Shown here: one piece after another, positions 1 to 9,367 of the stretch
How the letters are laid out: every line of letters begins with the position of its first letter
Numbering within the stretch: the first letter of the stretch is position 1
From: Candidatus Hecatella orcuttiae
GTDB taxonomy: Archaea; Thermoproteota; Bathyarchaeia; Hecatellales; Hecatellaceae
DNA: 64,000 bases
NCBI GenBank assembly: GCA_002011035.2
Contig: MTLY02000002.1
Location: 352,001-416,000, forward strand
Direction: 5' to 3'
Notes under the pieces: model-generated
The model's database searches: none
Told to the model about the DNA's origin: nothing
What the model saw: only the letters and a program-made list of their open reading frames with translations
Made by a program: the position numbers and the translations under genes

Positions 1-2
1 AC

Positions 3-377
3 ATCAAAGGAAACAAGTACACCTTCACGGTTAGTTCTCCCATAAACCGAGATAAAATAATCAAGTTCATCGACCTAGTAGAAATGATGGCCGGTTCTTT
101 GGAAATTAAAAATCCCTCCTCCTCAGACACGAAATTTGAAAAAATCCTCCAAACCGTGAAAGAACACTATCCTTTTCAATGGTTTACATCCACTGAAGTT
201 CAGTTAGCTTATGAAGAAAAATTTAAGGAGCCCATAAGCCTCAGCACCGTTTCCACCTACCTAAGCAGGTACTGGGAACAAAAAATTCTAACCCGCGAAG
301 GCTCTCCAGCCAGTCTTCGGTATAGACTTAACCCTGAGGTTTTAAATTCAGCACCGAAACAAGAACGTAGTGGCTAG
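3..377 (+). CDS. Winged-helix domain hypothetical protein, 5' partial
   Basis: Frame is open from position 3 (IKGNKYTFTV...) into ORF 84..377. C-terminal FTSTEVQLAYEEKFKEPISLSTVSTYLSRY...ILTREG...YRL has a wHTH pattern. Confidence 0.7.
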   Translation: MKGNKYTFTVSSPINRDKIIKFIDLVEMMAGSLEIKNPSSSDTKFEKILQTVKEHYPFQWFTSTEVQLAYEEKFKEPISLSTVSTYLSRYWEQKILTREGSPASLRYRLNPEVLNSAPKQERSG

Positions 378-380
378 AAT

Positions 381-1100
381 TCAGAGAGGCTCTTCTTTAA
401 CAGAAAACTCAAAACTTTTCCTGATCCTTTCACTTAAACTATAGCTGAAAGGTATTACATCAGTGTTTCTAACCACATAACCTTCTCTGTAAAGTTTTTT
501 CATTAACCTCGCTGCGTGCTCCCGTGTTTTGCCGATGACCTCTCTAATTTCCGGAGCTGTTTTAGGGCCGCTGCGGTACAAAACTTTTAGGACAGCCATC
601 TCTGTGGGGGTTAAGCGAGCGATGGAGACGTTTCCCCCCTCTAGCGTTGGACTCGGCTCCTCCAAACGTGGAGTCAAGCCTCGCATTTTTTTATCTTGGG
701 CATTAACCTGCTGTTCAAGCTGGATACGCTTTTCATCTAGGGCAGATAGTTTATCGTTATGGACTTTCAATATTTTTGCGAATTTTGTCTGAGCGCGGAA
801 GAGCTCTTTGATATTGGCGGTTAATGCTGATAACGTTTCCCTCTCAGCTTCATGGAAAGATTGAAGGCGGTTTAACTCTGAAAAGGAAGCTTCAATTCTG
901 TGCAGAGCATAGGAGACACTCTCCTCAACTTTAGCCATCTTCTTACTTAACTGAACTATGGAAAGCTGAACCAAGTCGCTTAACTCCCCTAGAGAACTCT
1001 TTTTAGGCCTTCTGAATAGAAGCAGTGCGAGAAGAAATCCGAAGGCCGCTGTAAAACTCAACAAGCCTAGAAAAAACACTTCTCCGGAAAAAACCGTCAT
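381..1100 (-). CDS. Membrane-anchored coiled-coil protein with C-terminal winged-helix (MarR/TrmB-like) domain
   Basis: N-terminal hydrophobic helix (VFFLGLLSFTAAFGFLLALLLF) followed by RRPKK, a long heptad-rich middle region, then LTPTEMAVLKVL..GPKTAPEIREVIGKTREHAARLMKKLYREGYV wHTH. Confidence 0.8.
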   Translation of the reverse strand: MTVFSGEVFFLGLLSFTAAFGFLLALLLFRRPKKSSLGELSDLVQLSIVQLSKKMAKVEESVSYALHRIEASFSELNRLQSFHEAERETLSALTANIKELFRAQTKFAKILKVHNDKLSALDEKRIQLEQQVNAQDKKMRGLTPRLEEPSPTLEGGNVSIARLTPTEMAVLKVLYRSGPKTAPEIREVIGKTREHAARLMKKLYREGYVVRNTDVIPFSYSLSERIRKSFEFSVKEEPL

Positions 1101-1106
1101 GAAATC

Positions 1107-1499
1107 TCACTCACCCTCTCACATGTGACCTGAAGAAAATCACAGAAATAATCACCTGTGACCTCTTCAACTGCATAATTCCCACCTGATATCACAAGTG
1201 ATGCTTTTGTAAGCAAGCACATCACATTTGACCTGACATTCATTCAAAAAATTATTCTCTTTATCAGGATTTAAACCTTGTGATTCCACCTACAAATCAT
1301 GTGACATCACGTTTATATGATAATTTTTCATTAAAAAGGAGTTATTCGGTGAAAAGAAGCTTATTTTTAGGGCTAAAATTGTTTTTAAACAATAATATAA
1401 GTTTTTATGTTAAGACATCACATGTCAAGTCACAGCTGATGTTTATTTATGATTTCAGGCGGTCACGGCATCACATGTAATCTGTGACATCACGTTTGA
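1107..1499. repeat. Array of palindromic TCACnnnTGA boxes flanking an AT-rich core (candidate origin or centromere-like site)
   Basis: Boxes at 1119 (TCACATGTGA, perfect palindrome), 1152, 1192, 1222, 1307, 1418, 1430, 1471, 1490, plus degenerate partners. 15-bp direct repeat TGTGACATCACGTTT at 1300 and 1483. Core 1312-1413 has 20 G+C in 102 nt. Confidence 0.85.
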
Positions 1500-1993
1500 T
1501 ATTTCAATGACTTGGGAGAAGTCAAAGTATTTAGGGCTTTTTCCAAGGCCTCCCTTACAGAAACAATGGTTGCGGCTCTTTGAAGTTCGTCGGAACTTGA
1601 TGAGGACTCTTCGCGGACTTGTCTATGTAAATCTAAATAGTCCTTCAGTCTACTGGACAATTCGATGTATTGTTGGAAGGCAGGCAAGTCGAAGATCCCC
1701 AGGGAGCCCAGTAATAAAAACGTGTATATTGACTTTATTATGTTTTTCTGAGCTTGTTTCAGGGTTCTATTGAAAGAACCTTTACTAATTTTTCCTTTAA
1801 TTCTAAAATAAGTTTTTTCTTCAGTTATCATTTTATTTCCAGATAAATATGGAATTATAGTGTCTATTAGAAACGTTTCCAGCTGCGTTTTGGTTAAATG
1901 ACTGTTTTTAAGTAGAATATCAGTGATGGGGTCTTGGTCGAGGTTTCTTAGCCATTTTTTGAATTCTTCAGGGTCCTTTAATTCCACGCTCAA
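1490..1993 (-). CDS. Archaeal hypothetical protein with possible HTH
   Basis: 167-aa ORF. LTKTQLETFL...ISKGSFNRTLKQAQKNIIKS resembles a sigma70-region-4-like HTH followed by a hydrophobic helix. Confidence 0.65.
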   Translation of the reverse strand: MSVELKDPEEFKKWLRNLDQDPITDILLKNSHLTKTQLETFLIDTIIPYLSGNKMITEEKTYFRIKGKISKGSFNRTLKQAQKNIIKSIYTFLLLGSLGIFDLPAFQQYIELSSRLKDYLDLHRQVREESSSSSDELQRAATIVSVREALEKALNTLTSPKSLKYQT

Positions 1994-2132
1994 GGAAACA
2001 CCCTGAAAGAATACGTTTTTGTATACCAGTATTTAAATCTTCCCGCAATCATAAGGTCTAAGGTTCCAATTTTTGGAGGCTTACCATACCTTTAGAAGCT
2101 AGGTGAGCAGGGAAACCCAGGCTTTCCGGAGG

Positions 2133-3428
2133 CTAAACAGAAATCTTGGCGGAAAAAGGCTTACCGCCAAAGGTTTTTTCACAGACTTCCGCAACTTTTT
2201 CACGGAATTGCGGCAAGGTATAGACTCTCACAATGTCCATAAACTGGGTTAGGGATGCTAAAAGAGGAGAAAGCTCCGTGGCTTTTTGAACAATCACACC
2301 CGCAGGGGTCTTCCGGTAGACGAGGATGTCTGACCGCTGCCTCTCCACTGGGTTGATGGGTACGGAAAGAACTTGAGGGACGTCGATGACGATGAAGTCC
2401 GGGTCAACTCCGGTTTTTTCCCCGATTTCAACCTCAACCTCGCGGCGGATGTTAGGTTTGTTGAGGAGGTTGGAAAAGAAGGTGTCTTTTCTGAATATGA
2501 TAAGCTCGTAGGTGCTCTTCAGAAGCTTTCTGCTGCGAACCCCCAAAATATATTGGTAGGCTTTCTGAAGCTTTTGGTCGACTTCCTTCTTGAGGGAGAG
2601 CAGTCCTTCTAGGACTTTACCGTCGTCCAATCGGAGAAACTCCTCCACGTCTTTGAAGGAGGCGAGGCCCAATTTTTCGCAGGCAAAATCCATGGCCCTT
2701 GCAATCATAACATTAGTCGCCCGCACTGTTCGGTGGAAGTAGACAGTGTTAAACATTTCCATCCTAGCGATGATGAAGGATTCCAAGACGCCGAAAGCCC
2801 CTGAACCGTCGGCCATCAGCCTCTTCTCTATCAACTCTAGGGATGAGATAAGCCGCTGGGCATCCACCTTTCCATATTCCACTCCAGCGAAGTAGGAGTC
2901 CCGAGCCAGATAGTCCATGATGTCTGCGGAAAAGTGGCCGGCGATAACCTGGTTCAGAAAAATTCTCTCCGTACGGTCTAAATGTCCTGTGGAAAGCTGA
3001 GCTATCTCTTTCTTGGAGAAGCCATGACTGGAAAGGATGTCCCCGATTTCGCTGCTCTCAATCACCCACTGGGTGAGGTCTTCGTGAGTTTGATGGCGGT
3101 GCTTTTCGAGGATTTCTTCGTAGACATGGGAGAAGGGGCCGTGGCCTACGTCATGAAGCAGCCCTGCTAGACGGACTTTTTGAATTTCCTCCTCCGAAAT
3201 GTAGCCCTTTTCGGCGAGATAGACTCCCAGCATGCCTGCCAAGTGCATAACCCCGAGGGAGTGGAGGAAACGGGTGTGAACGGCGCCAGGGTAGGTTAGC
3301 TCAGCTCCTGCCAGCTGCTTGATGTTCCTCAGCCTCTGGACGGGGGTGGAATCGATGAGCTTCTTCTCCACTTCTGTGAATCGGATGTAACCGTGGACAG
3401 GGTCCTTGATTTCTCCAACTCCTTTCAA
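2133..3428 (-). CDS. HD-domain phosphohydrolase (SAMHD1/dNTP triphosphohydrolase-like)
   Basis: Motifs IKDPVHG, QRLRNIKQL, HTRFLHSLGV, LLHDVGHGPFSH, DIMDYLARD, VYFH. Confidence 0.92.
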   Translation of the reverse strand: MKGVGEIKDPVHGYIRFTEVEKKLIDSTPVQRLRNIKQLAGAELTYPGAVHTRFLHSLGVMHLAGMLGVYLAEKGYISEEEIQKVRLAGLLHDVGHGPFSHVYEEILEKHRHQTHEDLTQWVIESSEIGDILSSHGFSKKEIAQLSTGHLDRTERIFLNQVIAGHFSADIMDYLARDSYFAGVEYGKVDAQRLISSLELIEKRLMADGSGAFGVLESFIIARMEMFNTVYFHRTVRATNVMIARAMDFACEKLGLASFKDVEEFLRLDDGKVLEGLLSLKKEVDQKLQKAYQYILGVRSRKLLKSTYELIIFRKDTFFSNLLNKPNIRREVEVEIGEKTGVDPDFIVIDVPQVLSVPINPVERQRSDILVYRKTPAGVIVQKATELSPLLASLTQFMDIVRVYTLPQFREKVAEVCEKTFGGKPFSAKISV

Positions 3429-3446
3429 TGGAAGGATCAGTTTAAC

Positions 3447-3809
3447 TCACCTGAAGTGAATGCTGGTTTTCGAATTTCCCATGCTCTTAACGAGGTTCAT
3501 CAGCGTTCGACCTGCTAGGGGATCGTTTTCTTGGGGGATAAACACCGAAGCTAGGGCGGTCTTGCCCCATTTGGCTGCCAAATATTCCGCCAAAACCCTA
3601 GCGAGGTGGGAGTTCTTATAGCCGAGGAGAAGGCTTGAAGAATGAGGCGCGGAAGGAGGAATGGGCGGGGTTGCCACGGCTAGGGTGCCCAGTTTAGTTT
3701 TCTCCCCTTCGAAAAAGAAGCTTAGGATAGCGTTGTCCAGTTCGAAGATGTAGACTGAAAATTTTCTTCCTTCCAGCTCCACTGTTTTGCTTAGGGCTTG
3801 GGGGAACAT
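3447..3809 (-). CDS. Hypothetical protein, possibly proteasome assembly chaperone (PAC4-like)
   Basis: Likely ATG start at 3809 with AGGAGT just upstream. KLGTLAVATP...LARVLAEYLAAKWGKTALASV resembles the PAC4 family pattern. Confidence 0.5.
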   Translation of the reverse strand: MFPQALSKTVELEGRKFSVYIFELDNAILSFFFEGEKTKLGTLAVATPPIPPSAPHSSSLLLGYKNSHLARVLAEYLAAKWGKTALASVFIPQENDPLAGRTLMNLVKSMGNSKTSIHFR

Positions 3810-3844
3810 CACTCCTTTAATCTCCAAGAAATCCTTAAAACATT

Positions 3845-4627
3845 GTGCTGGAAAAGGGAAATAACTTTTTGCGGAGGATGATAGATAAAGTTCAACCGCT
3901 TGAGGCGGCGACGACTTTGAAGCAGGATGCCAGCTGGATGGGTTCAATAATTTCCAGACTTAGGAAACACTTCGGAAAAATAATGTGGGCCAAATCGAAA
4001 GACTCTTTCGAGATTCTCGTGGCAACGATCCTAAGTCAAAACACCTCCGATGTCAACAGCCATCGCGCCTTCAGAGAGTTAAAAAAAGCCATGAAGCTTA
4101 CTCCGCAGGTTCTGGCTGAAAAGCCTCTGGGAGAGATCAAGCAGGCCATTCGAACAGCTGGGCTGGCTGAAATCAAAGCTAAAAGGTTGAAAGAGGCTTC
4201 CAAGTTCATCTTGAGGGAACTGGGAGGAAACCTGTCCAAAGTGTTCAACCTCCCTCCAGAAGAGAGTAGAAATTTTCTGCTGAGATTACCAGGTGTCGGA
4301 GATAAAACCGCCGACGTCATCTTAGTTTTCGCGGGGGGAATCCCCGTTGTTCCAGTGGATACGCATCTTTTCACCATAGGGAAGAGGCTGGGGCTTACAG
4401 CTTCCAGCCGCTACCAAGATGTCAGAGCAGCCTACGAGCGGCTTATCCCTCCAAAGGAAAGGGCGGAGGCCCATGTTCTCTTCATCGAGTTGGGGAAAAA
4501 AATCTGCACGGCTAGGAATCCTAAGCATGAAGCTTGCCCTATTCTAGACCTGTGTCCCACGGGGCTGAAATCTGTCTCCCAAGTGGATGATGAGGCTGAG
4601 AGGCGGCTTTCTGATACAGGCATGTGA
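3845..4627 (+). CDS. nth: Endonuclease III family DNA glycosylase
   Basis: FEILVATILSQNTSD, HhH LPGVGDKTA, PVDTH, C-terminal C-x6-H-x2-C-x5-C cluster motif. True start is probably 3878 or 3938. Confidence 0.93.
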   Translation: MLEKGNNFLRRMIDKVQPLEAATTLKQDASWMGSIISRLRKHFGKIMWAKSKDSFEILVATILSQNTSDVNSHRAFRELKKAMKLTPQVLAEKPLGEIKQAIRTAGLAEIKAKRLKEASKFILRELGGNLSKVFNLPPEESRNFLLRLPGVGDKTADVILVFAGGIPVVPVDTHLFTIGKRLGLTASSRYQDVRAAYERLIPPKERAEAHVLFIELGKKICTARNPKHEACPILDLCPTGLKSVSQVDDEAERRLSDTGM

Positions 4628-4777: not shown

Positions 4778-5413
4778 TTGAAACCGCTTAAAAACTGGGA
4801 AAAGAAGGATTCTCTCTTCGGAAAAATTAGCGACCGCTTCCACCGCACTCCGCCTTTGAGGGATAAGGTTTTCAACTCCCTCTACAAACTTAACAGCATC
4901 CAAGCTAAACTGGAGCAGTTGACCAACAAACTGGAGCAGAAGGATCGGGAGCTCTTTGGCAAATGCGCTGAATCCATGGCCCGGGGAGATGAGGAGCGTT
5001 CGAAGATCTATGCCAACGAGTGCGCTCAGCTGAGGAAGATGGCTAAAACCGTTTTGGGAAGCCAGCTGGCCATCGAGCAGGCTGCTTTAAGGCTGGAGAC
5101 GGTGAAGGAATTCGGAGACGTGGCCAAGGAGATGATGCCTGTAGCTGGTGTAGTTCGGTCGTTGAAAGGGAAGCTGGTGGGAGTTATGCCTGAAGCCTCC
5201 TTGGAGCTCAACGAAATTGGAGAAACATTAAACGAGATCATGTTCGAGGCGGGGGAAGTCTCCGCGTCGGCTCCCAGCTTCCAAGCCTCAGGGGAAGAGG
5301 CTCAGAAAATCCTTCAGTCCGCTTCGGTTTTGGCTGAGCAGAAAATGAAAGAGAAATTCCCCAAACTTCCAGTGGGAGAATTTGCGGAGGAGCGTTCTCC
5401 CGACCTCGGCTAG
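4778..5413 (+). CDS. cdvB: ESCRT-III (Snf7/CdvB family) protein without C-terminal winged helix
   Basis: KLEQKDRELFGKCA...ERSKIYANECAQLRKMAK...LAIEQAALRLETVKEFGD...GVMPE...EEAQKIL..A..LAEQKMKEKFPKLP, typical of archaeal CdvB paralogues. Confidence 0.92.
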   Translation: MKPLKNWEKKDSLFGKISDRFHRTPPLRDKVFNSLYKLNSIQAKLEQLTNKLEQKDRELFGKCAESMARGDEERSKIYANECAQLRKMAKTVLGSQLAIEQAALRLETVKEFGDVAKEMMPVAGVVRSLKGKLVGVMPEASLELNEIGETLNEIMFEAGEVSASAPSFQASGEEAQKILQSASVLAEQKMKEKFPKLPVGEFAEERSPDLG

Positions 5414-5515: not shown

Positions 5516-6493
5516 ATGGGAAGAGAGGAAAGACTTGAAGATGAAGTCCTAAGGATCTTTTTCGTCCTCTTGTCTGTGGTGAGTTGGTTTTTTATTCTCC
5601 AGTGGGCAGCGGAGCTTCTAGGCTGGCCCAGCCGGCCGGCGGGGTGGTCCTACCTCGCCGCCTTCTACGGGGCCTCTGCCGCCTATCTGGTGGGAAGGAC
5701 GAAAGGGCGGCTTAGAAAGGTCGTCTACGACTCCCCTTTTGCCGCTTATATCAACCTCCTGATAATCCTCGTCCCCCTATTCCTCATCTACCTAGCCTTG
5801 GCAAATCCCCCGCTGGAGGAGGCTCCTGGAAAAATCAGCCGACTGACGGCTTCAAGCCCCCTCACCTTGGCTTCAGGTTGGCTTTTCTCCTTCACCGCCT
5901 ACAGGTTTCTGGACAAGCTCTACGACAGGATTTTTGGGGTTTTCGAAAAAACCGGCCCCAGAGTCAGCTTCAAGACATCCGGCCCCATTCAAAGAGATGC
6001 GGAGGAGGTAGCGGGGAGGCTTGAGGTTGAGGCTGGAAAGCTGGCAGCCAAAGCCTCTGCTTGGGAGAAGCATGCCCACAGGTTGTACGATAAAGCCTTA
6101 GCAGCTCAGGTTTCAGGAAAAGCCGATAAAGCCAGCGCCTACCTTACAGCCTACTGGGAGGCGAAGAAGAACTCAGACCTGCTGGTGAAGGTGCAGGTGC
6201 AACTGGAAGGCTTAGTGGAGAGGCTTAAAACCCTCCACAGCTTCGCGGAAACCATGGCCGAGATGCCCTCCGCCTTCAAAACCATTTCAGAGCTTAAAGG
6301 GAGACTGAAGGGAGTTATTCCCGCTTTCTCCGGCGAACTGGAGAAGATAGGGCGAACGGTAGAAGAGCTTCTGGCCAAGACGCAGGCTCACGGCGGCAGC
6401 CTCCCAGAACAGCTCCAGGGAAAAGAGGCTCAAAAAATCCTCCTAGAAGCCGGCGGCGTAGCAGAGGCGAGGCTGAGGCATGGGAAAGACTAA
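5516..6493 (+). CDS. Multi-pass membrane protein fused to a C-terminal ESCRT-III/CdvB-like domain
   Basis: About four hydrophobic segments in residues ~11-132. Residues ~157-322 align by eye with the upstream CdvB (LKGRLKGVIPAFSGELEKIG vs LKGKLVGVMPEASLELNEIG; EAQKILLEA vs EAQKILQSA). Confidence 0.85.
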   Translation: MGREERLEDEVLRIFFVLLSVVSWFFILQWAAELLGWPSRPAGWSYLAAFYGASAAYLVGRTKGRLRKVVYDSPFAAYINLLIILVPLFLIYLALANPPLEEAPGKISRLTASSPLTLASGWLFSFTAYRFLDKLYDRIFGVFEKTGPRVSFKTSGPIQRDAEEVAGRLEVEAGKLAAKASAWEKHAHRLYDKALAAQVSGKADKASAYLTAYWEAKKNSDLLVKVQVQLEGLVERLKTLHSFAETMAEMPSAFKTISELKGRLKGVIPAFSGELEKIGRTVEELLAKTQAHGGSLPEQLQGKEAQKILLEAGGVAEARLRHGKD

Positions 6494-7204: not shown

Positions 7205-7819
7205 TTGGAGGCCGCTGGGTTGGTGAGGGTTCTGGGCGTGGAAGATGGCAGTTTTCCCAGCTGGCCGGCTGGGGTTAAGAAGGGAAAGGCTCTTCTCGCC
7301 GCGGTCACTCTCCGAGATTTCACCGTCGAAGACGTTGCCCTCGCTTGGGTGGCTGTAGACGGCTGGGATGCCACCGAGGCCGTCATCCAGATGGTGAAGC
7401 AGGGAGGGAAAAAACCAGACTTGGTGATGTTGGCCTCCCTTGCCTACGCCGGCTTCAACCTCGTCGACCCGGAGGAGGTTCACCGCCGCCTCCGCCTCCC
7501 CGTCCTCATTGTAAACCCCCAGAAACCCGACAGCTTAGCCGTGGAAGCCGCCCTTAAGAAGCATTTCCCCAACTGGAAGCAGAGACTCGCCATCTTGGAT
7601 AAGGCTAAAAAACCCTACAAACTCAGCTTGGAAGAAGGCGGAGAAGTGTTCTTCTACACCTACGGCCTAAGGGCCTTCGAAGCCCGAAAGCTCATCAAAA
7701 AACTGACAGTCTTCGGCCACCGCCCCGAACCCTTGAGGGTCGCCCGGCTGATAGCCCGAGGTCTCAGCCCTTCAAGGCGCGCCAAGCATCCGAGAAAAAT
7801 CCATCACGGTCAAGGCTAA
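7205..7819 (+). CDS. DUF99 family (endonuclease V-like) protein
   Basis: VLGVEDGSF, VAVDGWDAT, AGFNLVD, PEPLRVARLIA. Confidence 0.85.
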   Translation: MEAAGLVRVLGVEDGSFPSWPAGVKKGKALLAAVTLRDFTVEDVALAWVAVDGWDATEAVIQMVKQGGKKPDLVMLASLAYAGFNLVDPEEVHRRLRLPVLIVNPQKPDSLAVEAALKKHFPNWKQRLAILDKAKKPYKLSLEEGGEVFFYTYGLRAFEARKLIKKLTVFGHRPEPLRVARLIARGLSPSRRAKHPRKIHHGQG

Positions 7820-9367
7820 GGTTTTCAGATTGACCACCGCTGCCACACCGGGGGTGGGCGTTAACCCCAGCCTCTGCTGGTAGAGGGTCTGCTTTTGCCA
7901 ACACCCGGAATTGATCAGCCTCACCCCCCGGTAGTAGGTTTGGTCGAACACATGAATGTGGCCTGCGTGGTAAACGTCGGGAACCCGGTCCACCACCATC
8001 CAGTCCCGGGTCTCCGGGGCTATGGGGGTCCTCTGCCCGTAGACAGGGCTCAAATGCCGACCCTTGAGAAGGCCCAGCATGGCCTTGGCGGGGTTCCGGT
8101 GGCTGACGTTGGGCATGGAGACTAGGACGTCCTCCAAGCTTCGCCCGTGGTGGAGGAGAAACTCAACTCCGTGAAGCCTCACCTGCGCCGGGTTTCCCAG
8201 GGAAACCAGCTGAGAGCCGCATTTCTCGTAGAGGGCTTCGGCGTATTTTTTAGAAAGAGCCGGCTGGGGTAAAGCCTTTCGAACGGCGTCGTGGTTTCCC
8301 GGAATGACAATGATGACAATGTGGTCTGGAACCTGTTCGAGCAGAGCGGCAGCTGCCTCGTATTGGCGGCAAACGTCCTGAATCTCCAACTCTTCTTCCT
8401 GCTGAGGGTAGACTCCTATCCCGTCGACCAAGTCTCCTGCCACCAGAAGATACTTGACCTTTCCGGCGAGCTCCCTCTCCCGGCGGCCTCCCCCGCCTCC
8501 CCTCAGCCACCCGAGAAAGGCTTGGAAAAGTTTCCCCTCAAAGACCTTGCTTCCCACGTGGAGGTCTGAAATCAGCACAGCGTTTACCTCCTCTGGGGAA
8601 AAGCCGGGTCTCCTCTGGGGAACATCCGGCAGGATTAGGTCTTCCGCCACAACCAAGCCGTTTCCAGTTTTAACGCCTACCACCCCTACAACTTGGTCTA
8701 AGAGCAGATTTCGAGCTTTGTCCACCAGCATGGGATTGGAGTCTTGGACGAGAACCTGAGCCTCTGCCTCCAAGTCATCCACTCTCAGAAAGAATCTTTT
8801 CCCACGGCTGACTTTTTCCGCCACCATGCCCACGAACTTAACCTTAGCTCCCGCCCTACCCTCCAAAGACTCCCTGATGGTGGCTGCGTCCCTCAAATCC
8901 AACCTTTGCCTCAGCAACCTTTTCAGCTGCTGAAAGCGGCTTCTGAAATATTCCATGAAGGCTTCCACGCTTCCCTTGGAAGCCAGCTGAAGAGTAGGGT
9001 CCATGACCACCTCCACCCTAGCTTCCACATCCTTGGCCTCCGGGCGGAAGATCCCTTTACCCATCTCCACAGGTTCAGCTTCCCGAAGCCCCTCTGTGGC
9101 AGCGCGCTTCTCCCTCTCCAGCGTGGAAGCCTCCTCCACCATGGCTTTGCTGACAAAGGGAAAAGAAGGAGGGGCCTCTGATAATTTCTTCAAAACTCTG
9201 TCGACAATCTGCTCCGGATCTTGACGTTGGGAGAGGGTTTGGAGGAGGCTGAAAGCTTCCGCCTGCATCTGGTAGCCGGCTTCGTGGACCTTTCGAAGAG
9301 CCCGCTTCACTTTTTCATCCGGCTGAGCTTCTGGGGTTTGACGGTAGCCTAAGGTTTCAGCCTCCAA
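7772..9367 (-). CDS. polB: DNA polymerase D small subunit DP1 (proofreading exonuclease)
   Basis: OB fold plus calcineurin-like motifs ISDLHVGS, AGDLVDGIGVYP, PGNHDA, HHG, RHLSP, AGHIH, NSGCWQ. Confidence 0.96.
   Translation of the reverse strand: MEAETLGYRQTPEAQPDEKVKRALRKVHEAGYQMQAEAFSLLQTLSQRQDPEQIVDRVLKKLSEAPPSFPFVSKAMVEEASTLEREKRAATEGLREAEPVEMGKGIFRPEAKDVEARVEVVMDPTLQLASKGSVEAFMEYFRSRFQQLKRLLRQRLDLRDAATIRESLEGRAGAKVKFVGMVAEKVSRGKRFFLRVDDLEAEAQVLVQDSNPMLVDKARNLLLDQVVGVVGVKTGNGLVVAEDLILPDVPQRRPGFSPEEVNAVLISDLHVGSKVFEGKLFQAFLGWLRGGGGGRRERELAGKVKYLLVAGDLVDGIGVYPQQEEELEIQDVCRQYEAAAALLEQVPDHIVIIVIPGNHDAVRKALPQPALSKKYAEALYEKCGSQLVSLGNPAQVRLHGVEFLLHHGRSLEDVLVSMPNVSHRNPAKAMLGLLKGRHLSPVYGQRTPIAPETRDWMVVDRVPDVYHAGHIHVFDQTYYRGVRLINSGCWQKQTLYQQRLGLTPTPGVAAVVNLKTLALTVMDFSRMLGAP

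What the first reader, a model, noticed from the sequence alone, without database searches (positions are those of the whole stretch)
1107..1499. Array of 12-bp-spaced palindromic boxes around an AT-rich core: candidate non-canonical replication origin or centromere-like site
Seen in sequence: the 390-bp gap carries at least nine boxes matching TCACnnnTGA well (1119 TCACATGTGA, 1152 TCACCTGTGA, 1192 TCACAAGTGA, 1222 TCACATTTGA, 1307 TCACGTTTAT, 1418 TCACATGTCA, 1430 TCACAGCTGA, 1471 TCACATGTAA, 1490 TCACGTTTGA). Almost all have a full or degenerate partner exactly 12 bp away (1107/1119, 1140/1152, 1180/1192, 1222/1234, 1295/1307, 1418/1430, 1478/1490). A 15-bp direct repeat lies at 1300 and 1483. 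The boxes flank a 102-nt core (1312-1413) of about 80% AT in an otherwise GC-rich window. Established knowledge: origins consist of initiator boxes around a DNA-unwinding element, and centromere-like sites are clustered palindromes. The motif matches neither the Orc1/Cdc6 ORB nor bacterial parS. Inference: the density and fixed phasing exceed what a simple operator needs and suggest cooperative loading of a dimeric protein.
Basis: partly seen in the sequence, partly recalled or inferred. Interest (0 to 1): 0.9.

Follow-up and report, generated by a model that had tools for sequence, protein, structure and literature searches.

The report
Conserved protein-binding box array beside oriC
A dense array of TCAC/GTGA boxes lies 1.3 kb from the ordinary replication origin of a Bathyarchaeia archaeon and brackets the promoter of a membrane-anchored DNA-binding protein, so it is most likely that protein's operator and possibly a site that ties the origin region to the membrane, not an origin itself.

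Summary
The boxes are real. There are 20 TCAC/GTGA tetramers in window 1101-1499, against 2.6 expected from the genome rate. This is the densest such place in the 1.75-Mb genome.

It is not the replication origin. Canonical ORB elements (TTCCANTGGAAA, one with a G-string) around an AT-rich stretch lie directly upstream of the best Orc1/Cdc6 gene. That is about 1.3 kb to the left, just outside the window.

The array lies between two conserved genes:
- a 167-aa all-helical gene (p167), whose TGA stop codon sits inside the outermost box;
- a 239-aa gene (p239) encoding a transmembrane helix, a ~100-residue helix and a winged helix.

The order p167 - array - p239 - p136 - ORBs - orc1 recurs across the class Bathyarchaeia. 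In most relatives the boxes are 7-bp tandem or 6-bp inverted half-sites placed on both sides of a TATA-like box. A strict three-box pattern occurs at one locus per genome in 41 of 121 class genomes, and its reversed control never occurs. The AT-rich core is a spacer of variable length and is not AT-rich in high-GC relatives.

Best reading (0.55): a multi-site operator for a locally encoded DNA-binding protein, probably p239. If p239 is the binder, the origin region must be held at the membrane, so a centromere-like tether remains open (about 0.2). No binding was tested.

The parts
3..377 (+). 3' part of gene p136 (136 aa; it starts 34 nt left of the window at C2:351967). N-terminal beta/alpha part plus a C-terminal winged-helix-like segment. 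It is transcribed divergently from orc1 across the ORB origin.
   Evidence: ORF. No Pfam or NCBIfam family above cut-off. Homolog present in 71 of 80 related loci, next to the p239 homolog.
381..1100 (-). Gene p239: an N-terminal transmembrane helix, a ~104-residue single helix (coiled-coil-like), a disordered linker and a C-terminal MarR/Lrs14-like winged helix-turn-helix.
   Evidence: Pfam MarR 1.2e-6 at residues 163-213. NCBIfam Lrs14 9e-4, below cut-off. AlphaFold2 model: H5-29, H37-140, low confidence 144-156, wHTH 165-234, mean pLDDT 83.9. Foldseek best matches are MarR-like regulators and the pNOB8 centromere-binding protein AspA. The recognition helix (T/S)REH(T/S)ARLMKKL is nearly invariant.
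1107..1128 (.). Start-proximal boxes: TCAC at 1107 and 1111, and the palindrome TCACATGTGA at 1119-1128. They abut the p239 start codon (1100).
1140..1161 (.). TCAC at 1140 plus the palindrome TCACCTGTGA at 1152-1161 (12-bp pair).
1192..1201 (.). Palindrome TCACAAGTGA.
1222..1236 (.). Box TCACATTTGACCTGA. Read on the p239 strand it is GTGA preceded by degenerate copies. This is the counterpart of the class-wide 'site C' downstream of the TATA-like box.
   Evidence: (family D1)
1269..1275 (-). TATA-like TTTAAAT on the p239 strand: the inferred p239 promoter.
   Evidence: Sequence. In relatives, a TATA-like hexamer lies within 40 nt upstream of the last GTGAnnnGTGA pair in 38 of 58 anchored loci, against 13% of random 40-nt segments of the same regions. 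No transcript data.
1280..1316 (.). GTGA at 1280 and the inverted pair GTGACATCAC at 1301-1310 (boxes 1295-1304 and 1307-1316). This is the counterpart of 'site B' upstream of the TATA-like box, and the left copy of the 15-nt direct repeat (1300-1314).
   Evidence: (D5)
1312..1413 (.). AT-rich core (80.4% AT): the spacer between the distal and promoter-proximal box clusters.
   Evidence: Spacer length varies (intergenic regions 102-1025 nt) and its AT-richness is not conserved.
1418..1439 (.). Boxes TCACATGTCA and TCACAGCTGA, 12 bp apart.
1463..1499 (.). Distal cluster ('site A'): TCAC at 1463 and 1471, and GTGACATCAC at 1484-1493. The p167 stop codon (TGA, 1490-1492 on the minus strand) lies inside the last box. 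Right copy of the 15-nt repeat (1483-1497).
   Evidence: In relatives site A (GTGAYRTCACRNNTCAC-like) also starts at the p167 stop, and it stays there when hypF separates p167 from p239.
1490..1993 (-). Gene p167: a Bathyarchaeia-wide, all-helical protein of unknown family. A sigma-70 region-4-like HTH is only a weak lead.
   Evidence: No Pfam or NCBIfam hit. 4405 relatives, those with a name all 'hypothetical protein', none with a Pfam domain among the 120 listed. AlphaFold2: 8 helices, pLDDT 78.6. No PDB fold match with E <= 0.001. Atlas rank-23 cluster at score 0.79 with Sigma70_r4 in 14% of members.
2009..2038 (-). p167 promoter region: TATA-like ATTTAAAT (2031-2038) and a second, different conserved element, GGTATACAAAAACGTATTC on the minus strand (2009-2026).
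   Evidence: GTATAC lies within 200 nt upstream of the p167 homolog in 57 of 76 loci (3.8 expected), mostly at one fixed distance.

Best explanation
The array is a conserved, single-locus set of binding sites (half-site TCACA/TGTGA) for a DNA-binding protein encoded next to it. The most likely binder is the winged helix of the membrane-anchored protein p239.

The sites lie upstream of, over and downstream of the TATA-like box of the p239 promoter. A further cluster 150-300 bp away sits on the stop codon of the upstream gene p167. Cooperative occupancy would repress or tune p239 transcription, possibly with looping between the distal and proximal clusters.

The array is not the replication origin. 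It belongs to a conserved three-gene module (p167, p239, p136) that adjoins the canonical ORB origin and orc1 in Bathyarchaeia.

Shown: the anatomy, the enrichment, conservation, synteny and single-locus occurrence, and the promoter-like layout.
Inferred: that a protein binds, which protein, and the effect on transcription.
For: 1. Real and unique. There are 20 half-sites in 399 nt, against 2.6 expected from the genome rate and a simulation maximum of 14 in 5000. It is the densest place in the genome. Composite motifs elsewhere in the genome are few and scattered.

2. Conserved with its genes. The p239 homolog was found in 24 of 41 relatives, including 11 of 13 in the same family. A two-cluster array lies upstream of it in the same-family loci and in several loci of other families. 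In 80 named Bathyarchaeia loci, p167 is present in 76, p136 in 71 and orc1 in 69. At least 10 half-sites lie within 650 nt upstream of p239 in 68 of 78 evaluable loci, where 5.3 are expected.

3. Promoter layout. A TATA-like hexamer lies within 40 nt upstream of the last GTGAnnnGTGA pair in 38 of 58 anchored loci, against 13% in the control, with a mode at 21-24 nt. A further box pair lies 35-110 nt upstream in 45 of 58.

4. One locus per genome. The pattern GTGAYRTCACRNNTCAC gave 50 matches in 41 of 121 class genomes, 1-2 per genome. The nine doubles lie on one contig within 7-573 nt. The reversed control gave 0 matches in all 121.

5. A suitable binder is adjacent. p239 has a confident wHTH with a nearly invariant recognition helix, matching the invariant half-site.

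6. p167's own promoter carries a different conserved element (57 of 76 loci). The locus therefore holds two specificities and at least two candidate binders.

7. The canonical origin is elsewhere. Three of the genome's 8 TTCCANTGGAAA sites flank an AT-rich stretch directly upstream of orc1.
Against: - No binding, footprint or transcript data exist. No RNA run was listed.
- The binder is unassigned. In genomes where hypF separates the two genes, the distal cluster stays at the p167 stop (5 of 5 loci), while the p239 promoter has no boxes in L021-L023 and L013 even though the recognition helix is almost unchanged. So at least the distal cluster is not simply a p239 operator and may belong to p167.
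- Half-site spacings of 6-7 bp are short for side-by-side winged helices. They are typical of ribbon-helix-helix binders, and none is encoded nearby.
- Ten to twenty half-sites over 300-400 bp is more than most autoregulators use.
- A transmembrane anchor is unusual for a plain autoregulator.
- The window's own array departs from the class consensus. It has TCACnnGTGA palindromes and 12-bp pairs, no match to the strict three-box pattern, and its TATA-like box lies about 46 nt from the next GTGA.
Confidence: 0.55

Rival explanations
1. Origin-proximal tether or centromere-like site. p239 is anchored in the membrane by its N-terminal helix and binds the array through its winged helix. This holds the oriC region at the cell envelope for positioning, segregation or replication control. 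Autoregulation would be a by-product, as at plasmid centromeres that overlap their own promoters.
For: - p239 has a transmembrane helix followed by basic residues, a ~104-residue helix, a flexible linker and a wHTH. The hydrophobic N-terminus recurs in distant homologs.
- The array occurs at a single locus per genome, 1.3 kb from the ORB origin here and within a few kb of orc1 in 69 of 80 loci.
- It has many repeated sites in direct and inverted orientation, like the heptad arrays that serve as both operators and parS sites in pSM19035 (passages read in PMC2441792, and PMC9499535).
- Archaeal SegB and AspA also bind sites upstream of their own operons (passages read in PMC5120986). AspA is among the best fold matches of the p239 wHTH.
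- A bacterial protein that bridges origin-proximal motifs and the membrane has been reported (RicO; abstract only).
- If p239 binds the array at all, the tethering follows physically.
Against: - No partition NTPase was seen in the genes read around the module. Searches cover the right side. The actin-fold DUF1786 gene next to orc1 is not conserved there (0 of 57 evaluable loci). No genome-wide search for ParA/SegA was made.
- That p239 is the binder is itself unproven.
- Fold similarity to AspA is generic wHTH similarity, since MarR regulators score the same.
- The promoter-centred layout is explained by regulation alone.
- In L021-L023 and L013 the gene persists without boxes at its promoter.
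Confidence: 0.22
2. A second origin, or an accessory part of oriC. The boxes would be bound by a replication factor, such as the second Orc1/Cdc6 paralog or one of the local winged-helix proteins acting like Sulfolobus WhiP (recalled), and the AT-rich core would unwind.
For: - Boxes flank an 80% AT core that is in the top 0.064% of the genome for AT content.
- The array intergenic region is as AT-rich as the ORB intergenic region in this genome (GC 0.34 against 0.33).
- It lies within 2 kb of orc1.
- A second Orc1/Cdc6 paralog scoring above the family cut-off is listed for most of the 41 relatives searched.
Against: - Canonical ORBs with a G-string and their own AT-rich stretch already lie directly upstream of orc1.
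- The core is a spacer of variable length.
- Its minimum GC is higher than that of the ORB intergenic region in 46 of 49 loci, and it equals the locus GC in high-GC relatives.
- The boxes are positioned relative to a TATA-like box and a start codon, not to the core.
- The second orc1 paralog is about 170 kb away, with no ORB core and no box cluster in the 4.5 kb around it.
- GC and purine skews on the three contigs show no usable turning point at this locus.
Confidence: 0.08
3. The boxes are bound by p167, or by a factor encoded elsewhere, and act mainly at the 3' end of p167, for example as a roadblock or insulator between the two transcription units. p239 would be a target and not the binder.
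For: - The outermost box contains the p167 stop codon here and in relatives.
- That cluster stays with p167 when hypF is inserted (5 of 5 loci).
- Boxes are present wherever p167 is adjacent, even in the compact L025 and L026 loci.
- They are missing at p239 promoters that lack p167 upstream (L021-L023 and L013).
- p167 has a weak sigma-70 r4-like lead.
Against: - p167 has no recognised DNA-binding domain.
- Its own promoter carries a different conserved element.
- In G019 a reduced box set lies upstream of the XRE-CBS/p239 operon, with p167 6.8 kb away.
- The proximal boxes are placed around the p239 TATA-like box.
Confidence: 0.1

Closest known systems
Heptad arrays bound by the omega repressor (ParB) of plasmid pSM19035
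   Same: Both have short repeats with the same core letters. The plasmid heptad is 5'-WATCACW-3'. Here the boxes read ATCACA, spaced 7 bp in relatives. In both, the repeats occur in direct and inverted orientation, as several contiguous copies, at promoters. In the plasmid the sites are both operators and centromeres (passages read in PMC2441792, and PMC9499535).
   Different: Omega is a ribbon-helix-helix dimer of a bacterial plasmid and works with a ParA ATPase. Here the setting is an archaeal chromosome, the adjacent candidates are winged-helix or helical proteins, and no ParA gene is adjacent. The boxes form separated clusters, not one unspaced run. The shared core letters are most likely coincidence.
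Archaeal centromere-like sites: SegB sites upstream of segAB, and the AspA palindrome of pNOB8
   Same: In both, a site-specific dimeric binder recognises palindromic sites just upstream of its own operon, and the sites may be both centromere and operator (review PMC5120986, passages read). The AspA fold is among the best matches to the p239 wHTH.
   Different: Those systems include a ParA-type ATPase, and none is seen here. p239 carries a membrane anchor and a long helix that SegB and AspA lack. No sequence relationship was shown.
Canonical archaeal oriC (ORB or mini-ORB repeats around a DNA-unwinding element next to orc1/cdc6)
   Same: Repeats flank an AT-rich stretch within 2 kb of orc1.
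   Different: The boxes are not ORBs. The true ORBs lie 1.3 kb away. The AT-rich core is not conserved. The boxes are placed around a promoter.
Autoregulated MarR/Lrs14-type repressors, whose sites overlap the TATA box and start site of their own gene (Lrs14 autoregulation is recalled, not read)
   Same: A wHTH of MarR/Lrs14 type, with boxes on both sides of a TATA-like element of its own gene.
   Different: p239 has a membrane anchor and a ~100-residue helix. There are 10-20 half-sites, including a distal cluster on the neighbouring gene's stop codon. The module sits at a fixed position beside oriC across a whole class.
Origin-to-membrane bridges such as RicO of Staphylococcus aureus (abstract read) and membrane-integrated ToxR/CadC-type regulators (recalled)
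   Same: A DNA-binding domain joined to a membrane-binding element. For RicO, a specific motif lies in the origin-proximal region.
   Different: These are bacterial and unrelated in sequence. RicO uses a C-terminal amphipathic helix and several dispersed sites. For p239 nothing has been tested.

Membership tests
Archaeal replication origin (oriC) | ORB or mini-ORB initiator boxes | tested here: not met
   No TCCANTGGA core lies in window 1101-1499. Three TTCCANTGGAAA sites lie at C2:351541, 351703 and 351787, upstream of orc1.
Archaeal replication origin (oriC) | AT-rich unwinding element between the boxes, conserved in relatives | tested here: not met
   It is present in this genome (80.4% AT). 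In relatives the spacer is variable. Its minimum GC is lower than that of the ORB intergenic region in only 3 of 49 loci, and it equals the locus GC in high-GC relatives.
Archaeal replication origin (oriC) | Directly adjacent to the initiator gene | tested here: not met
   Two genes (p136 and p239) and the ORB region lie between the array and orc1.
Archaeal replication origin (oriC) | Strand-composition switch or replication initiation at the site | tested here: inconclusive
   Cumulative GC, purine and keto skews on the three unordered contigs show no clear extreme at C2:~352-353 kb. Such a test could not separate two sites 1.3 kb apart anyway. Coverage profiling was not possible.
Plasmid-type centromere with iterated repeats (omega heptads; ParR/parC recalled) | Arrays of short direct and inverted repeats overlapping the promoter of the adjacent operon | tested here: met
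   Among adjacent half-sites in 72 loci, spacings of 7 bp (174 cases) and 6 bp inverted (112 cases) dominate. The boxes flank a TATA-like element.
Plasmid-type centromere with iterated repeats (omega heptads; ParR/parC recalled) | Ribbon-helix-helix centromere-binding protein encoded in the operon | tested here: not met
   The neighbours are a MarR-like wHTH (p239), an all-helical protein (p167) and p136. No RHH family was hit.
Plasmid-type centromere with iterated repeats (omega heptads; ParR/parC recalled) | Partner NTPase (ParA, ParM or TubZ type) encoded alongside | tested here: not met
   None among the genes read at C2:346-368 kb. The DUF1786 actin-fold gene beside orc1 is absent from 57 of 57 evaluable related loci. 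No genome-wide ParA search was done.
Autoregulatory operator of a MarR/Lrs14-like repressor | wHTH regulator gene immediately downstream of the sites | tested here: met
   Pfam MarR above cut-off (28.7 against 24.6 bits). wHTH in the model. MarR-like fold matches.
Autoregulatory operator of a MarR/Lrs14-like repressor | Sites overlap the core promoter or transcription start | tested here: inconclusive
   The position relative to a TATA-like box is conserved (38 of 58 loci), but no transcript start is known. In the window the spacing is atypical.
Autoregulatory operator of a MarR/Lrs14-like repressor | The regulator binds the sites | not testable with these tools
   No protein-DNA prediction or assay was available.

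The most novel reading that the evidence does not exclude
Bathyarchaeia carry a dedicated origin-to-membrane tether. The single-pass membrane protein p239 reaches about 15 nm into the cytoplasm on a long helix and clamps a unique array of TCACA boxes 1-4 kb from oriC. Newly replicated origins would thus be fixed to the envelope, giving an NTPase-free, centromere-like segregation or replication-licensing device. p167 and p136 would be its partners or regulators.
Probability: 0.2. Interest if true: 0.85.

Novelty: new variant of a known kind. Interest (0 to 1): 0.55.

Why it matters
How archaea position and segregate their chromosomes is largely unknown outside SegAB in Sulfolobus, and nothing is known for Bathyarchaeia, an abundant and mostly uncultured class.

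This locus gives a concrete, class-wide, single-copy DNA element next to the replication origin, together with a membrane-anchored DNA-binding protein and two uncharacterised partner genes. All of these can be expressed and tested in vitro without culturing the organism.

Even under the ordinary reading (an elaborate autoregulatory operator), the work yields several things:
- the likely oriC of these genomes;
- a conserved origin-adjacent gene module;
- two conserved operator-like motifs;
- a correction of the idea that the array is itself an origin.

Tried and rejected
- Rfam scan of the window at gathering thresholds: only two tRNAs, nothing at the array.
- GC, purine and keto skew on the three contigs: no usable signal at the locus.
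- PWM built from the 12 boxes: 12 hits in 400 bp at the array, against at most 5 elsewhere. This is circular, because the model was trained on those boxes, so I rely on the tetramer counts instead.
- Profile searches of p167, p239 and p136 against PDB sequences: only coiled-coil noise and one MarR hit for p239, nothing for p167 or p136.
- Foldseek of the p167 model: no match with E <= 0.001.
- p167 relatives: 4405 proteins. Of the 120 listed, those with a name are all 'hypothetical protein'.
- ESM Atlas for p167: only its own Bathyarchaeota clusters, plus one weak Sigma70_r4 lead.
- Complex prediction for p239(37-239) with p167: no verdict (score 0.00, controls not folded). This is no evidence either way.
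- The look-up of sequencing runs, kind rna, window 1-4000: no RNA holder listed.
- DUF1786 (actin-fold) gene beside orc1 as a possible ParM-like partner: not conserved next to orc1 (0 of 57 evaluable loci). Rejected.
- Co-variation between the p239 recognition helix and the half-site: not informative, because both are nearly invariant.
- Box clusters inside the nadE-like coding region upstream of p167 in L109 and L111: seen but not followed.
- Literature: searches for Bathyarchaeota with replication origin and Orc1, for archaeal membrane-anchored winged-helix proteins with chromosome segregation, and for Lrs14 with transmembrane and coiled-coil listed no paper on this locus or protein family. 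That is only what these three searches show.
- Supplementary files were not consulted.
Full report
**What is there**

Window 1101-1499 is the 389-nt gap between two minus-strand ORFs: 381-1100 (239 aa, 'p239') and 1490-1993 (167 aa, 'p167').

The clustering is far beyond chance:
- 9 of the 11 strand-counted TCACNNNTGA matches in the 64-kb window lie in the gap.
- All 3 TCACNNGTGA matches lie there. They are 3 of only 9 such sites in the 1.75-Mb genome.
- The gap holds 20 TCAC/GTGA tetramers, against 2.6 expected from the genome rate.
- In 5000 first-order Markov simulations of the gap's own composition the mean was 4.8, sd 2.1 and maximum 14. GTGA/TCAC is the most enriched tetramer pair in the gap.
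- No other 400-bp stretch of the genome has more than 11.

The 15-nt direct repeat (1300-1314 and 1483-1497) is exact. The core 1312-1413 is 80.4% AT, which only 0.064% of the genome's 102-nt windows reach.

The '12-bp phasing' is weaker than stated. Three pairs have exact TCAC tetramers 12 bp apart. The other four have degenerate partners.

**Where the window lies, and where the origin is**

The window is G000:C2:352001-416000 of a three-contig, 1.75-Mb archaeal genome. The closest named relatives of its proteins are 'Candidatus Hecatellales' and other Bathyarchaeia genome bins.

The best Orc1/Cdc6 gene of the genome (409 bits against TIGR02928, 480 bits against the ORC1-type model) is at C2:350209-351513 on the minus strand. 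It ends about 0.5 kb left of the window.

Its upstream intergenic region (C2:351514-351966, GC 0.33) has the features of a canonical archaeal oriC:
- It carries three TTCCANTGGAAA elements out of 8 in the genome.
- One of them is followed by a G-string.
- They are arranged around an AT-rich stretch.

The box array lies 1.3 kb further on. Two genes separate it from the ORBs: p136 (C2:351967-352377, plus strand, ending at window 377) and p239. A second, more divergent Orc1/Cdc6 gene lies about 170 kb away, with neither ORB cores nor a box cluster in the 4.5 kb around it. Cumulative skews on the unordered contigs are uninformative.

**The neighbours**

p239:
- It matches Pfam MarR above cut-off at residues 163-213 and weakly matches Lrs14/Sta1.
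- Its AlphaFold2 model (mean pLDDT 83.9) has a hydrophobic helix at 5-29 followed by RRPKK, one helix spanning 37-140, a low-confidence linker and a winged helix at 165-234.
- The best Foldseek matches of the model are MarR-like regulators and AspA, the centromere-binding protein of plasmid pNOB8 (E about 2e-4 to 8e-4). This is generic winged-helix similarity.

p167:
- It has no family in Pfam or NCBIfam.
- It is predicted all-helical and has no fold match in the PDB.
- It belongs to a family of at least 4405 proteins. The named ones among the 120 listed are Bathyarchaeia 'hypothetical proteins'.
- A sigma-70 region-4-like helix-turn-helix is only a weak lead (and my reading of the alignment).

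p136 has no family either.

Further right lie an HD-domain protein, endonuclease III, two Snf7-like proteins, and the small subunit of a family-D-like DNA polymerase.

**Conservation**

A search of 41 relatives found p239 homologs in 24 genomes (G000 included). These include 11 of the 13 other genomes of the same family.

Upstream of the homolog, the same-family loci and several loci from other families show the same architecture:
- a box cluster abutting the gene start;
- a spacer;
- a second cluster;
- then the 3' end of a p167 homolog.
These loci have 13-21 half-sites per 400 bp.

A scan of one genome per species found at least 577 stretches encoding relatives, nearly all titled Bathyarchaeia. 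The best 80 loci were kept. Among these 80:
- p167 is present in 76, p136 in 71, orc1 in 69, and all four genes in 62.
- The order p167 - p239 - p136 (reverse) - orc1 holds in 50 of those 62.
- At least 10 half-sites lie within 650 nt upstream of p239 in 68 of 78 evaluable loci, where the loci's own rate predicts 5.3.
- An exact ORB core lies between p136 and orc1 in 29 of the 50 canonically ordered loci.

**Grammar of the boxes in relatives**

In 72 p167-p239 intergenic regions, adjacent half-sites in the same orientation are most often 7 bp apart (174 cases). Spacings of 11, 10 and 12 bp follow (53, 32 and 24 cases). GTGA followed by TCAC is most often 6 bp apart (112 cases).

The usual layout, read in the p239 direction, is:
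- the p167 stop codon inside 'site A' (GTGAYRTCACRNNTCAC-like);
- a spacer, within intergenic regions of 102-1025 nt;
- 'site B' (GTGAnnnGTGAnnTCA-like);
- a TATA-like CTTTAAAT or CTTAAGT;
- 'site C' (GTGAnnnGTGA);
- 'site D' (TCAC repeats about 11 bp apart);
- the start codon.

A TATA-like hexamer lies within 40 nt upstream of the last GTGAnnnGTGA pair in 38 of 58 loci that could be anchored. The same holds for 13% of random 40-nt segments of the same regions. The distance mode is 21-24 nt. In 45 of 58 loci another box pair lies 35-110 nt further upstream.

The strict three-box pattern GTGAYRTCACRNNTCAC gave 50 matches in 41 of 121 class genomes. There were one or two per genome. The nine doubles lie on one contig, 7-573 nt apart. 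The reversed control pattern gave none in any genome. The window's own genome has no match to this strict pattern. Its array is a local variant with three TCACnnGTGA palindromes and 12-bp pairs.

**Against an origin**

The spacer that forms the AT-rich core here is variable in length. In the 49 loci where both intergenic regions could be measured, the ORB region has the lower minimum GC in 46. In high-GC relatives the array region has the GC of the whole locus. The boxes keep their position relative to a TATA-like box and a start codon, not relative to the core. Together with the canonical ORB origin 1.3 kb away, this makes a second origin unlikely (0.08).

**Which protein binds?**

This is not settled.

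For p239:
- Its winged helix is confident.
- Its recognition helix is almost invariant, as is the half-site.
- The proximal boxes surround its promoter.
- In G019 a reduced box set lies upstream of an XRE-CBS/p239 operon, with p167 6.8 kb away.

Against a simple p239 operator:
- In five genomes hypF has been inserted between the two genes. There site A stays on the p167 stop codon (5 of 5 loci).
- In those genomes the p239 promoters of L021-L023 and L013 carry no boxes.
- Spacings of 6-7 bp are short for adjacent winged helices. They are what ribbon-helix-helix dimers use on the heptads of plasmid pSM19035, whose consensus 5'-WATCACW-3' happens to share the core ATCAC (PMC2441792, passages read). 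No such protein is encoded here.

p167's own promoter carries a different, equally conserved element. It reads GTATACAAAAnTGTATYC, lies within 200 nt upstream in 57 of 76 loci where 3.8 are expected, and sits at window 2009-2026. The module therefore holds at least two DNA specificities.

A co-fold of p239(37-239) with p167 gave no verdict.

**Most likely mechanism**

The array is a multi-site operator. A locally encoded protein, most probably p239 dimerised through its long helix, occupies TCACA boxes upstream of, at and downstream of the TATA-like box. It also occupies a distal cluster, and so controls p239 transcription, perhaps with a loop across the spacer (confidence 0.55). Only the anatomy and conservation are shown. 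Binding and regulation are inferred.

A corollary follows. If the membrane-anchored p239 is the binder, the DNA 1.3 kb from oriC must sit at the membrane whenever the operator is occupied. Plasmid centromeres that double as operators (omega heptads; SegB and AspA sites) and the bacterial origin-membrane bridge RicO (abstract only) show that such dual use exists. I give a functional tether or centromere role about 0.2.

**Novelty and verdict**

I found no description of this locus, motif or protein family in three full-text searches. The element is a new variant of a known kind, namely an iterated operator or centromere-like array. Its unusual features are class-wide linkage to oriC, a membrane-anchored winged-helix gene, and a box that contains the neighbouring gene's stop codon.

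The origin interpretation is not supported. The centromere-like interpretation stays open. Interest 0.55.

Noticed in passing
G000:C2:351514-351966 (L001 about 2737-3190), just left of the window: The canonical archaeal origin. Three TTCCANTGGAAA ORB cores (C2:351541, 351703, 351787) surround an AT-rich stretch between the divergent orc1 and p136 genes, and one core has a G-string. Three more TTCCANTGGAA sites lie at C2:347728, 348246 and 348962, on the far side of orc1.
   Followed up: partly
window 2009-2038: A second conserved element, GGTATACAAAAACGTATTC on the minus strand, lies just downstream of a TATA-like box in the p167 promoter. GTATAC lies within 200 nt upstream of p167 homologs in 57 of 76 loci (3.8 expected), mostly at one fixed distance. 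It is probably the operator of another local regulator.
   Followed up: partly
window 3-377 and C2:351967-352377: p136 is a small protein with a beta/alpha N-terminal part and a winged-helix-like C-terminus. It is conserved between p239 and the ORB origin in 71 of 80 loci. No family, function unknown. It is a candidate origin-associated factor.
   Followed up: partly
window 4778-5413 and 5516-6493: Two adjacent ORFs about 4 kb from the origin. The first is Snf7-like (Pfam Snf7, 3.3e-4, below cut-off). The second has hydrophobic N-terminal segments and a similar C-terminal part, with no Pfam family.
   Followed up: no
window 7772-9367 (minus strand): A DNA polymerase small-subunit-like gene (DNA_pol_E_B plus Metallophos), with endonuclease III (3845-4627), endonuclease dU (7205-7819) and an HD-domain protein (2133-3428) nearby. 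This looks like a replication and repair gene neighbourhood around the origin.
   Followed up: no
L109 about 1000-1200 and L111 about 1000-1250: In two relatives of one family, a cluster of 9-10 TCAC/GTGA tetramers lies inside the coding region of a nadE-like gene upstream of p167. It is unclear whether these are coding coincidence or functional boxes.
   Followed up: no
L034, L041, L084, L013, L016, L017: In several lineages a 195-aa HTH (XRE-like) gene is inserted directly upstream of p239 and appears to form an operon with it. In others a hypF gene lies between p167 and p239.
   Followed up: partly
G000:C2:349041-350126: A DUF1786 (actin-fold ATPase superfamily) gene lies immediately downstream of orc1 in this genome only. 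It is not found next to orc1 in 57 evaluable related loci.
   Followed up: yes
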